Source: Carcharhinus amblyrhynchos (Eukaryota). From it: DNA of 64,000 nucleotides. This document shows, one piece after another, positions 33,001 to 36,000 of this stretch. The DNA lies in contig OZ336872.1 of assembly GCA_965287045.1 (NCBI GenBank), positions 104,966,001 through 105,030,000 of the forward strand, in the 5' to 3' direction. Made by a program: the position numbers. How positions within the stretch are numbered: position 1 is the stretch's first letter; every line of letters starts with the position of its first letter.

Positions 33001-36000
33001 TTTTTAAAACGTATTTAACGTTGGCCCTCAAATGTAATCAAGATGCAAATGCTGCCTTTAACATACAGCATGAAATCCTGAAATATGTTAGGTTTTCCCT
33101 AACATATTTCAGGAATATTAAAGCAGCTAGAGGAAGGGCCACCAATATGACCATTGGTGGCCCTTCCTCTAGCTGCTATAATATTCTAAGCTGAATTGGA
33201 TTAAGACTGCAATGAATGTTAAGGACACATATATATTACATGAATCAAAGTTCAGAAATCACAACATACAATCTAACTGGAAAGTACCACCACGCTAAGA
33301 AACAAAGTTTTAATCTGAACCTTGTATGCCATCTTTGACTTGCTATGAGAAAATGTCTTGCAATCTTGCTTTTAACGCTAATCCGTGCACCTTCGTTTCT
33401 TAAAAACGTGGTACTGACAATAGGCATATATACATATATAGGCTGCTTTATGCTGAAAGTCAATGGATCTAAATAATAGTTTCTTTTGACCTAATATTTT
33501 AGGTCAAAAGAAACAATTCAGTATGTTTGACTTTTTTCAAATAGCTTCTGCTCAAGTTGATGTTTTAAATAAATAGAGATGGTCTGTTTTTTGTGAGTGC
33601 ATAGTGAACATAATGAATCATAAATATATCAATGTCAGAATGGAACATGTGGTGAGCTGCGTTGCCATTTACATGAGAAAAAGTGTGAGAAAACCACAAT
33701 TTCCCAAAACTGGCTGTGATTTCTATTTTTTGGAGTAGGAAAAGGATCACGTTTAACTGTCAACTATACACATGCACAACCAGTGCCTTGATAGCACTTC
33801 ACACAACCCACTCTGCAGGAAAGCCTGTGAAAAAAGTCAATGACTCCCTCTGTCAAGGGCCCTCCCAGACAACAATGAGCATGAGTGTGCTTCACTGAGG
33901 ATGGGGAGGCACTCCACATCACTAATGGAGCTTTTGATTCCTCCCTTTGCAGGGCAGCAATTAGTGATCGATGGTGTGTGCAGCTGGCCAGATGTTTTAC
34001 AGTCAATGTCTGCTGCTTTTTTTTTGATGAACATCTTCAGTCAGTGAGAACTTGAAGTTAATGTGGGGAGAATGAATACAACAACATTGTGATAATTTGA
34101 TTAAAAATAGTAAAGATGCGAGAAGGGAATTAATGAAAGAGAAAGAACAACAAGGGACATATACAATGAGATCTGAGAAGAGGGGTTATTGAGCTGGAAT
34201 ACAGCATCTGATGGTGAAAGTATAAACACTAAAATAAGTTAATATCAAAATAGTTTTCTATAATCACACAGAAAATGCATGAAAAATTAAATAAAGAAAT
34301 TGAAAGAACAAAGTAATTAATATTGGTGTAAATCAATGGGCATGTTCAATAAGCCAGTTTATTTTTAATTGTATAAATAATTTTAGGTTGATTGTCAAAA
34401 TAAGAATTAATGGAAAATTTGCAAAATTATAACACACCAAATGTAATTTATAGTCAGGTATAACCAGGTTCAATTTGTCACATCCAGCATGAACTTTGTT
34501 TTATGATGGTTTAATTTTGTGTATTGCATCTACCCTCGAGATGAGAATAAAGGTTTCTTTTTTTTTAGAACACTTTCATTGTATCGTGTATCCTTTCTCC
34601 TTTGTCTCTACCTGCCTGTACTCCAGGAAATCACATAACGCTGCTGTGCTGGTTCTTTGTTGAGACTTGTGCAGTGGTAATGCAGGCAGCCAAATCCTGT
34701 AAAATCTTGCTAACATTCACCATCTCCCAATCTGAAAAATGAATGCATAAGATTAACGAATAATTGCTGTGAGTCGAAAACCCCCAATAATTCCCAATTA
34801 CTACAAATTATTGCACTCAAGAACAAATCATACAGTATCATCACAAGCGAGGTTTAGCTTCAAATTAAAAAGTCATTTTTTGTTATACTTTATTTATTGC
34901 ACCTATACTTAGTGCTGAGAACAAACTTTTGATATGAAATATCTCTTGTAATGGATTGCATTGAGCAAAGGTATGTGTTGTGTGTAAATGTGTATGTGTG
35001 TCTATATACGTATATGTGTGGATGTATATTTATATATATGTGTGTGTGTGAGTATGTGTGTATGTGTATTTGTCATATGCACGATGCGTTTATCTTATGC
35101 ATGTGTGTGAAAGTTTGTTGAATTTGGAGACAAAAATGGCTAAAGTCACAAAACTGCCGATGAGAAAAGAAGAGTTTGATACTCAAATATATGTTTGGTT
35201 TCTGAATTACCAGACTTGCTGGACAGTAGAACATTCAGGCAGCTTCTATATGTGTATGCTGGTGGGGGTCAGAGGTTGAAGAGGGCAGTGGTGTGCTTTG
35301 CTGGGACGTTAGGTGTCACTCTGGGGCTGCTTCACTCTAAGGAGCCCCTTTGGGGCCTTAAGATACATGTATTGTAATCTTTCTTGTGTGTATAAGTGTG
35401 TTTAGTGTATTTATATAAAAATCTATACTGTGGGCGGTTTTATCTGGGAGAGGGAGGATGCTCTGTGGCAAACCGCTGATTACAAAATCTGGTCGAGGTT
35501 AAAAGAGAACAAATAATTTACAAGTATTACTTGTACAAATTGGTTCTGTGCGTCTGTAGGTTGTATAAGCTATGAATGGGATACATTATGCGATTAATTA
35601 ATGCTCTGCATTCTGTTTATACCAAAAGTATGGTATCAAAATGAAACTAAAATAAAATATTATTGCTATTAAATATTTGATTTTAGTCGAGGTGACGTAT
35701 GGCAGCGTCACAATATTTACCAGCTGAAATCTCCAGAAGGATTATATTCACCATTTTGAAAGTGATATTAGCAGAACTTGAAAATGCTAAGTTTATGGGT
35801 AACTGATTCCCAGTGGCTGCAGTTGTTAAATAATTGAAAGCTGCAGTTTTCAGAGCATCAACTGAGGCAGGAAACTAAGAATTAAAAAATGAAGCATTAA
35901 AAATATTTCCACTGTTGCGTACAGTTGACCTCAATATGAACATAGAGCAGTAGACAAAATGGCAGCACAGCCAGTGACTTGTCAGAGAAACTGCACCTGT

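What the first reader, a model, noticed from the sequence alone, without database searches (positions are those of the whole stretch)
33076..33186. Back-to-back near-perfect hairpins in ephb3 intron 1, including a 34-bp stem
Seen: a perfect 17-bp stem (33076-33114) overlaps by 2 nt a 74-nt hairpin (33113-33186) with 25 perfect pairs, one mismatch and 8 more pairs. The arms are complex sequence, I saw no other copy in the window, and they lie in the TE-free domain. Known: Microprocessor substrates have stems of about 33-35 bp, and ancient vertebrate repeats such as Eulor/UCON are often palindromic. Inference: a candidate intronic miRNA or hairpin RNA, ADAR substrate, cruciform, or foldback element kept symmetric by template switching or selection. 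I recognise no known miRNA in it, and the 6-nt loop is small for a pri-miRNA.
Basis: partly seen in the sequence, partly recalled or inferred. Interest (0 to 1): 0.65.

Follow-up and report, generated by a model that had tools for sequence, protein, structure and literature searches.

The report
Two abutting perfect hairpins, intron scar
Two near-perfect DNA hairpins sit back to back in the first intron of an EphB3-like receptor gene and most likely record a copying slip during DNA replication or break repair, not a gene or a mobile element.

Summary
H1 (33076-33114) has a perfect 17-bp stem and a 5-nt loop. H2 (33113-33186) has 34-nt arms with 33/34 pairs and a 6-nt loop. They share 2 nt. Chance does not explain them: simulations expect 0.07 perfect stems of at least 12 bp per window, and the three observed all lie within 443 nt (H1, H2, and a third palindrome H3 at 33475-33518). 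The arms are single-copy in the window and the hairpins are unrelated to each other. No Rfam family reaches its threshold. The site is 5.2 kb into intron 1 of an EphB3-like gene on the + strand.

Best reading: templated inverted copying (replication template switch or snap-back repair synthesis). The two inner arms form one contiguous 49-nt block (33098-33146) that meets at a 2-nt microhomology, as expected if two ends each copied themselves and were then joined. A role as a microRNA is not supported but not excluded. Copy number in the genome, conservation, small RNAs and read support could not be tested, because no eukaryotic genome, repeat library or RNA data were available.

The parts
33076..33092 (.). 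H1 left (outer) arm, 17 nt
   Evidence: 17/17 complementary to 33098-33114
33093..33097 (.). H1 loop, 5 nt, not self-complementary
33098..33114 (.). H1 right (inner) arm, 17 nt; its last 2 nt are also the first 2 nt of H2
33113..33146 (.). H2 left (inner) arm, 34 nt; A33121 is the one unpaired position
   Evidence: 33/34 complementary to 33153-33186
33147..33152 (.). H2 loop, 6 nt, not self-complementary on the + strand
33153..33186 (.). H2 right (outer) arm, 34 nt; A33178 faces A33121
33098..33146 (.). Contiguous 49-nt block made of the two inner arms. It is the proposed templated insertion. Its reverse complement equals the two outer arms, which share a 2-nt overlap
   Evidence: Read directly; that it is the inserted part is inference
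33475..33518 (.). H3, a third unrelated near-perfect palindrome: 22-nt arms, 20/22 paired, perfect 16-bp core
   Evidence: not similar to H1 or H2
27853..27907 (+). Context: inferred exon 1 coding part (start codon, hydrophobic signal-peptide-like stretch, GT donor at 27908)
   Evidence: Read. It joins in frame with exon 2. Not confirmed by any search
56701..56765 (+). Context: inferred 65-nt exon 2
   Evidence: AG acceptor and GT donor, open frame; no Pfam hit on its own
60859..61539 (+). Context: exon 3, ephrin-receptor ligand-binding and cysteine-rich domains
   Evidence: Pfam Ephrin_lbd 6.4e-67 and Ephrin_CRD 1e-22. Best solved-structure match over the first 150 aa is EphB3 3p1i, 294.9 bits ungapped, against 244 bits for EphB2

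Best explanation
The two hairpins are a mutational scar from templated inverted copying, and they have no dedicated function. A 3' DNA end folded back on its own strand or jumped to the opposite strand, copied a short stretch backwards, and then returned. This happens either at a stalled replication fork (template-switch mutation) or at a resected double-strand break (snap-back synthesis followed by microhomology-mediated end joining). One such step makes a perfect stem with a short loop.

The most economical history is a single episode in which the outer arms and loops (33076-33097 and 33147-33186) are old. On that history each of two facing ends copied itself inwards, by 17 nt on the left and 34 nt on the right. 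The two new tracts then annealed at the 2-nt microhomology at 33113-33114, which leaves the contiguous 49-nt block 33098-33146 as the insertion.

A two-step variant is about as likely. H2 arose first, stalled later forks at its base, and so seeded H1 exactly at its edge.

Shown here: the anatomy, the departure from chance, single copy within the window, no relation among the three hairpins, and their clustering in AT-rich sequence. Inferred: the mechanism and which arms are new. Because the intron is transcribed in the sense direction, the hairpins will also form in the pre-mRNA. I take that as a consequence of the scar, not as its purpose.
For: 1. Stems of 17/17 and 33/34 with 5- and 6-nt loops cannot arise by point mutation. 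Simulations expect 0.07 perfect stems of at least 12 bp per window, with a longest of 13 bp in 100 runs.
2. The arms are complex and single-copy in the window.
3. H1, H2, H3 and H4 share no significant similarity. The only low p-values are the H1/H2 rows, which reflect the overlapping slices I gave the script. So these are not copies of one element.
4. All three stems of at least 12 bp lie within 443 nt. For three uniformly placed points that has P = 1.5e-4, computed after the fact.
5. The inner arms abut with a 2-nt overlap. If the second hairpin were placed at random within 443 nt on either side, a gap of -2 to +2 nt would have a probability of about 0.006.
6. Local GC is 0.33-0.35 against 0.41 for the window. 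Template-switch loci in great apes lie in AT-rich sequence, and the same paper notes that stable structures can stall forks (passages of PMC7954356).
7. Passages of PMC10710096 state that a single template switch creates perfect stems, and they infer events of 28 and up to 83 bases.
8. Passages of PMC5728401 describe snap-back priming at resected ends followed by annealing of the new DNA at a microhomology across the break, with the insert becoming part of a longer inverted repeat.
9. The window as a whole has 8 perfect stems of at least 10 bp against 0.87 expected, which suggests an ongoing background process.
Against: 1. There is no outgroup or second haplotype, so no arm can be shown to be new.
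2. Snap-back tracts seen in the laboratory are short. Most insertions were under 15 bp (PMC5728401). The median insertion was 7 bp, with snap-back runs of 8 and 15 nt (PMC4912351). Tracts of 17 and 34 nt are therefore long for polymerase theta, which favours a replicative polymerase or a different enzyme.
3. The 2-nt overlap has a 1-in-16 chance of arising at a blunt junction.
4. The clustering and abutment probabilities were computed after the pattern was seen.
5. Single copy in 64 kb says little about copy number in a whole genome.
6. Near-perfect arms could also reflect selection or conversion within the palindrome, not youth.
Confidence: 0.6

Rival explanations
1. H2 alone, or the 111-nt pair, is a miniature foldback transposon (MITE-like element), with arms that are terminal inverted repeats and many copies elsewhere in the genome.
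For: H2 has two 34-nt arms around 6 nt. By my recollection this is the layout of short mariner-derived elements that gave rise to the mir-548 family. H3 gives a weak sub-threshold hit to mir-548 (28.4 bits against a gathering score of 90). The composite begins and ends with the same 2 nt.
Against: There is no second copy of any arm in 64 kb at up to 3 mismatches, and none by sensitive blastn. No direct repeat flanks H2 in the sequence. The outer ends of the composite are not inverted repeats of each other. H1, H2 and H3 are unrelated to one another, although members of one family should be similar. The window does hold repeat families with up to 10 overlapping in-window matches elsewhere, so repeats can be detected this way.
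Confidence: 0.12
2. H2 is a young intronic small-RNA gene, a proto-microRNA or endogenous siRNA hairpin. It is cut out of the Eph receptor pre-mRNA by Drosha and Dicer, or by Dicer alone. It may well have been born by the template switch proposed above.
For: The stem is 34 bp, close to the preferred 35 bp (passage of PMC10710096). The hairpin lies in a sense-transcribed intron. The same paper reports hairpins born by template switching in transcribed DNA that became microRNA genes. Sub-threshold Rfam matches to microRNA models show a precursor-like shape (MIR5229 41.5 bits, mir-3718 30.8 bits).
Against: All Rfam hits are far below gathering scores (80 and 78) and occur on both strands, so they reflect shape only. 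Nothing here passes at gathering thresholds. The loop is 6 nt, against a preferred 10 nt or more. The stem lacks the mismatches and wobbles that aid processing. I read the flanks against motif positions recalled from memory (basal UG, apical UGU/GUG, downstream CNNC) and found none on either strand. H1 (17 bp) and H3 (16-22 bp) are too short to be substrates, so the cluster is not a microRNA cluster. One search for EPHB3 with 'intronic miRNA' and 'host gene' returned one unrelated paper, seen as a listing only.
Confidence: 0.08
3. The palindromes are kept by selection as DNA or RNA structure. They could be a cruciform, a binding site for a dimeric factor in a first-intron regulatory region, or a double-stranded RNA that affects splicing or editing of the pre-mRNA.
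For: The site lies 5.2 kb downstream of the start codon, just past a domain richer in CpG at 22.5-32 kb that surrounds exon 1. Each H2 arm carries a CCAAT pentamer next to the loop. A duplex of 32-34 bp in a pre-mRNA is in principle long enough for editing enzymes (general knowledge).
Against: No conservation data exist. Three unrelated palindromes give no common motif. Local CpG observed/expected is 0.28, as low as the window mean of 0.33, so the site is not part of the CpG-rich domain. Perfect long stems are typical of young, unselected inverted copies.
Confidence: 0.06
4. The hairpins are an assembly or sequencing artefact, for example a chimeric fold-back read or a polishing error.
For: Palindromes are known trouble spots for sequencing and amplification (general knowledge). 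Nothing in the window itself points this way.
Against: By my recollection, fold-back artefacts give palindromes of read length, not arms of 17-34 nt with unique non-palindromic loops. Three separate small palindromes with different sequences, one of them with 2 mismatches, look like evolved sequence. The window has no N and no break nearby.
Confidence: 0.04

Closest known systems
Short-range template-switch mutations (Loytynoja and Goldman four-point model; Monttinen and Loytynoja 2022, PMC8794818; Monttinen et al. 2023, PMC10710096; Walker et al. 2021, PMC7954356)
   Same: One-step creation of a perfect reverse-complement copy next to its source, giving a hairpin tens of bases long. The setting is AT-rich. 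It occurs in transcribed non-coding DNA.
   Different: A single four-point event copies one contiguous source, so it cannot make two abutting hairpins from two different sources. Two switches are needed here. The ancestral state that defines such an event is unknown for this locus.
[quoted passage not shown]
   Same: A resected 3' end folds back, primes on itself, and copies itself. The new DNA anneals to the other end at a short microhomology. The insert becomes part of a longer inverted repeat. Here the junction shows 2 nt of overlap.
   Different: Reported tracts are mostly under 15 bp, whereas these are 17 and 34 nt. Both ends would have had to snap back. None of the passages I read describes a junction with snap-back on both ends.
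Short palindromic MITEs that became microRNA genes (mir-548 type; layout recalled from memory)
   Same: Two long arms around a loop of about 6 nt, which fold into a near-perfect hairpin of 70-80 nt.
   Different: No second copy, no target-site duplication, and no sequence similarity at Rfam's threshold (28.4 bits against 90, and that hit is on H3, not H2).
Canonical pri-microRNA hairpins
   Same: The H2 stem length of 34 bp is close to the preferred 35 bp, and it lies in a host-gene intron in the sense direction.
   Different: The loop is 6 nt instead of 10 or more. The stem is perfect. I found no processing motif, using recalled positions. No family match. No expression data.

Membership tests
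Template-switch / templated-insertion mutation | A perfect or near-perfect reverse-complement copy lies within a short distance of its source | tested here: met
   17/17 pairs at 5 nt spacing and 33/34 pairs at 6 nt spacing
Template-switch / templated-insertion mutation | The pattern cannot be explained by chance or low complexity | tested here: met
   0.07 stems of at least 12 bp expected and 3 observed; longest simulated stem 13 bp; 0 of 200 shuffles fold as well
Template-switch / templated-insertion mutation | An ancestral or outgroup sequence lacks one arm, so that a cluster of changes is explained by one event | not testable with these tools
   No eukaryotic genome collection was available. 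The open genome collection holds bacteria and archaea only, and I did not scan it
Snap-back end joining (SD-MMEJ / polymerase theta) | Microhomology at the junction between newly made DNA and the other end | tested here: inconclusive
   The two inner arms share 2 nt at 33113-33114. At a blunt junction this has a 1-in-16 chance
Snap-back end joining (SD-MMEJ / polymerase theta) | Templated tracts of the size this pathway makes | tested here: not met
   The tracts are 17 and 34 nt. The papers report mostly under 15 bp, a median of 7 bp, and runs of 8-15 nt
MITE / foldback transposon | Multiple dispersed copies | tested here: inconclusive
   0 further copies in 64 kb. The whole genome and repeat libraries were not available
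MITE / foldback transposon | Target-site duplication flanking the inverted repeats | tested here: not met
   No direct repeat of 2-10 nt flanks H2 or H3. The composite has only the same 2 nt at each end, and these are part of the arms
microRNA precursor | Match to a curated family at its threshold | tested here: not met
   Best hit 41.5 bits against a gathering score of 80. No microRNA family reaches gathering in the whole window. miRBase and MirGeneDB were not available
microRNA precursor | Stem of about 35 bp with an apical loop of 10 nt or more | tested here: not met
   The 34-bp stem meets the criterion and the 6-nt loop does not (criterion from PMC10710096). H1 at 17 bp and H3 at 16-22 bp fail on the stem
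microRNA precursor | Discrete 22-nt reads with 2-nt 3' overhangs | not testable with these tools
   No RNA data
Helitron 3' end | A hairpin 10-12 nt before a terminal CTRR that is followed by host T (recalled definition) | tested here: not met
   CTAG at 33127-33130 lies 12 nt after H1. However, it is followed by A, it lies inside the H2 arm, and its mirror copy is in the other arm. I take this as chance

The most novel reading that the evidence does not exclude
The 34-bp hairpin is a newly born small-RNA gene caught at birth. A double template switch in the first intron of an EphB3-like gene created in one step a perfect Dicer- or Drosha-sized duplex, which is transcribed with its host and already yields small RNAs. 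The stacked 17-bp neighbour would form its basal extension, since together the two hairpins make a nicked helix of about 49 bp. A still bolder variant that the sequence alone does not exclude is that the 111 nt are an inserted 109-nt closed 'dumbbell' DNA, opened by a 2-nt staggered cut.
Probability: 0.07. Interest if true: 0.5.

Novelty: new member of a known kind. Interest (0 to 1): 0.27.

Why it matters
If the reading is right, this locus is a clean natural example of how perfect hairpins appear in one step in vertebrate non-coding DNA. It also has an unusual feature. Two unrelated hairpins meet at a microhomology, so the inner 49 nt look like one insertion made from both sides. A single alignment with a relative's intron can tell three histories apart: inner block new, outer arms new, or the whole unit inserted. 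If abutting pairs like this prove over-represented genome-wide, that would show either that breaks are often repaired with snap-back on both ends and with longer tracts than seen in the laboratory, or that one hairpin seeds the next by stalling forks. For the gene itself the finding is probably of no consequence.

Tried and rejected
1. Larger hidden palindrome. An inverted dot-plot of 32950-33650 (at least 11 of 14 matches) found only H1 (extendable to 18/19), H2, H3 and noise-level matches. It found no diverged outer arms around the pair.

2. Common origin of the hairpins. Local alignments of H1, H2, H3 and H4 in both orientations against 300 shuffles gave nothing beyond the trivial H1/H2 overlap. 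H1 against H3 gave p of about 0.05-0.08. A resemblance I saw by eye between the H1 loop and right arm and the centre of H3 (13/16) is therefore not significant.

3. Rfam at permissive and at gathering thresholds. Only shape-driven sub-threshold microRNA hits appeared.

4. Helitron end, piggyBac-type TTAA and mariner-type TA duplications. I read these against and none fits. The outer 8 pairs of H2 contain a self-complementary hexamer, but the flanks do not form a direct repeat next to the 25-bp core.

5. Hairpin-opening (P-nucleotide) footprints of hAT/RAG-type excision. I rejected these for H1 and H2 because their loops of 5 and 6 nt are not self-complementary. H3 has no true loop, so this remains possible for H3.

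6. Relative age from arm mismatches. The counts are 1/51 for H1 plus H2 and 2/22 for H3, Fisher p = 0.21, so nothing can be said.

7. Literature. One search for an EPHB3 intronic microRNA returned 1 unrelated paper, seen as a listing. One search for adjacent hairpins with template switching returned 49 papers at 4 of 5 terms. Of the 10 listed I opened only PMC7954356. I make no claim that double snap-back junctions are absent from print.

8. The phage, plasmid, E. coli and prokaryote-genome collections were not searched, because they cannot hold a vertebrate intron.

Full report
**What is there.**
- H1 spans 33076-33114. It has a perfect 17-bp stem around a 5-nt loop.
- H2 spans 33113-33186. 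It has 34-nt arms with 33 of 34 positions complementary (25 pairs, the A33121:A33178 mismatch, then 8 pairs) around a 6-nt loop.
- The two share 33113-33114.
- As RNA, H1 folds at -24.3 kcal/mol and H2 at -58.8 kcal/mol (z-scores -9.85 and -14.76; 0 of 200 shuffles fold as well). The minus strand folds equally well.
- In a 171-nt context both hairpins form side by side, as RNA (-89.2 kcal/mol) and as DNA (-56.6 kcal/mol). H2 gives up its two outer pairs to H1. The pair then amounts to one stacked helix of about 49 bp, closed by a loop at each end and open at one point where the flanks enter and leave.

**More than chance.** I simulated 100 windows with a first-order Markov chain fitted to this window. 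I counted perfect stems with loops of 0-10 nt.
- The mean number of stems of at least 12 bp was 0.07, and the longest stem in any run was 13 bp.
- The real window has three such stems, of 25, 17 and 16 bp, and all three lie between 33076 and 33514.
It has 22-nt arms with 20 of 22 paired and no real loop.
- Three uniformly placed points fall within 443 nt with probability 1.5e-4. I computed this figure after seeing the pattern.
- The window also has 8 perfect stems of at least 10 bp against 0.87 expected.

**Not a repeat family, as far as the window can tell.**
- Neither arm of H1, H2 or H3 has another copy in the 64 kb at up to 2-3 mismatches. The single 3-mismatch match to the 17-mer at 3502-3518 is within chance expectation.
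- A word-7 blastn of 32000-34500 against the window found only hits with E of 0.13 or more.
- A self-comparison of the whole window shows repeat families elsewhere, with up to 10 overlapping in-window matches. At 32-36 kb it shows nothing except the hairpins themselves.
- The four strong hairpins of the window (H1, H2, H3, and H4 at 22092-22172) are not similar to one another.
- No direct repeat flanks H2 or H3.
- I had no eukaryotic genome, no Dfam and no miRBase. Copy number in the genome therefore remains open.

**Where it lies.**
- Exon 3 of an ephrin receptor is on the + strand from 60859 (Pfam Ephrin_lbd 6.4e-67, Ephrin_CRD 1e-22).
- Over its first 150 residues the best solved chain is EphB3 (3p1i, 294.9 bits, no gap), ahead of EphB2 (244 bits, with a 4-residue gap). 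By my count of the printed alignment about 125 of 150 residues are identical to the EphB3 chain. So the gene is B3-like, and I do not take the window for human.
- A 65-nt exon 2 lies at 56701-56765.
- A start codon with a hydrophobic stretch lies at 27853-27907 with a GT donor, and it joins exon 2 in frame.
- Exon 1 is inferred from reading frame and splice signals only. I searched exons singly and left out the joined spliced model.
- On this model intron 1 is 27908-56700, and the hairpins lie about 5.2 kb into it, transcribed in the sense direction.
- A domain richer in CpG (observed/expected 0.5-0.83) runs from about 22.5 to 32 kb around exon 1. The hairpin region itself has 0.28, like the window mean of 0.33.
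- Local GC is 0.33-0.35 against 0.41 for the window.

**Known RNA families.** At permissive settings Rfam gives only microRNA models that reward a long perfect hairpin:
- MIR5229, 41.5 bits against a gathering score of 80.
- mir-3718, about 30 bits on both strands against 78.
- mir-548, 28.4 bits against 90, on H3.
At gathering thresholds the whole window yields only a tRNA at 20699-20771.

**How it most likely arose.** Stems this perfect need a copying mechanism. Two well-described ones make a reverse-complement copy next to its source in one step.
[quoted passage not shown] Passages of PMC7954356 place such events in AT-rich sequence and note that the stable structures they create can themselves stall forks and cause breaks.
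- *Snap-back synthesis at a resected break.* This is followed by annealing of the new DNA at a microhomology on the other end, and the insert becomes part of a longer inverted repeat (passages of PMC5728401; PMC4912351).

The anatomy adds one point that I consider informative. The two inner arms (33098-33114 and 33113-33146) form one contiguous 49-nt block. The reverse complement of that block is the two outer arms, and the join between the inner arms is a 2-nt overlap. That is what is expected if the outer arms and loops are old, each of two facing 3' ends copied itself inwards, and the two new tracts annealed at a 2-nt microhomology. A single four-point template switch cannot do this, because it copies one contiguous source.

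The alternative histories are as follows:
- Two independent events whose limits happen to coincide. For a second hairpin placed at random within 443 nt on either side, a gap of -2 to +2 nt has a probability of about 0.006.
- H2 arose first and seeded H1 at its base by stalling forks.
- The whole unit was inserted.

These histories predict different sequences in relatives, so one alignment can separate them.

**Against the end-joining version.** Laboratory snap-back tracts are short: mostly under 15 bp, a median insertion of 7 bp, and runs of 8-15 nt. The tracts here are 17 and 34 nt. The 2-nt overlap alone is weak evidence, with a 1-in-16 chance at a blunt junction. I therefore commit to the class (templated inverted copying with no dedicated function) at about 0.6. 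I do not choose between the replication and repair versions.

**The microRNA idea.**
- H2 has nearly the preferred stem length, but its loop is 6 nt where 10 or more is preferred, and it lacks the mismatches that aid processing.
- Using positions I recall from the literature, not from any call, I found no basal UG, apical UGU/GUG or downstream CNNC on either strand in the sequence.
- H1 and H3 are too short to be substrates.
- Hairpins born by template switching in transcribed DNA are the reported raw material of new microRNAs. So this reading stays open at low probability and needs small-RNA data.

**What stayed unchecked.**
- Conservation across relatives.
- Genome-wide copy number.
- Repeat and microRNA databases other than Rfam.
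- Small-RNA and editing evidence.
- Read support.
- The supplementary tables of the template-switch papers.

**Verdict.** The most likely explanation is an ordinary though neatly legible mutational scar, a new example of a known kind. Its one unusual feature is the junction of two self-copied tracts.

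Noticed in passing
window 33475-33518: A third near-perfect palindrome (H3) lies 290 nt downstream of H2. It has 22-nt arms with 20/22 paired, a perfect 16-bp core and no true loop, and GC is 0.23. It is unrelated in sequence to H1 and H2 and is single-copy in the window. It gives a sub-threshold mir-548 hit (28.4 bits against 90).
   Followed up: partly
window 22092-22172: The longest hairpin in the window. 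It has 40-nt arms that are 90% complementary with 1 nt between them, and it folds at -62.3 kcal/mol (z -11.6). It lies in the repeat-rich upstream part. Its arm has no other copy in the window, and it is unrelated to H1-H3.
   Followed up: partly
window 20699-20771 (-): A tRNA-Cys(GCA)-like sequence (Rfam tRNA 53.1 bits; ARAGORN) sits in a stretch that is repeated within the window. It could be a tRNA gene or the head of a tRNA-derived SINE.
   Followed up: no
window about 22500-32000: A domain with raised CpG observed/expected (0.5-0.83, against 0.33 for the window) but only moderate GC surrounds the inferred exon 1 (27853-27907). It looks like a broad unmethylated promoter domain. The hairpins lie just outside it.
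   Followed up: partly
window 30874-31245: A diverged minisatellite in intron 1 (periods 15, 27, 42 and 69; 66-79% matches). It creates long open frames on both strands that are not genes.
   Followed up: no
window 34974-35067: An imperfect 8-nt TG-rich tandem repeat. It gives sub-threshold mir-297 and mir-3149 hits, which are likely artefacts of low complexity.
   Followed up: no
window 61612-61902 (+) and 37507-37806 (-): Two open frames share a similar peptide motif and belong to a family repeated in the window. Neither has a Pfam match. They are probably remnants of a transposon reading frame. One lies just after exon 3.
   Followed up: no
whole window: There is a general excess of short perfect hairpins: 8 stems of at least 10 bp (loop 0-10) against 0.87 expected from Markov simulations. 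The five smaller ones are at 25761, 28671, 39285, 55905 and 63754.
   Followed up: partly
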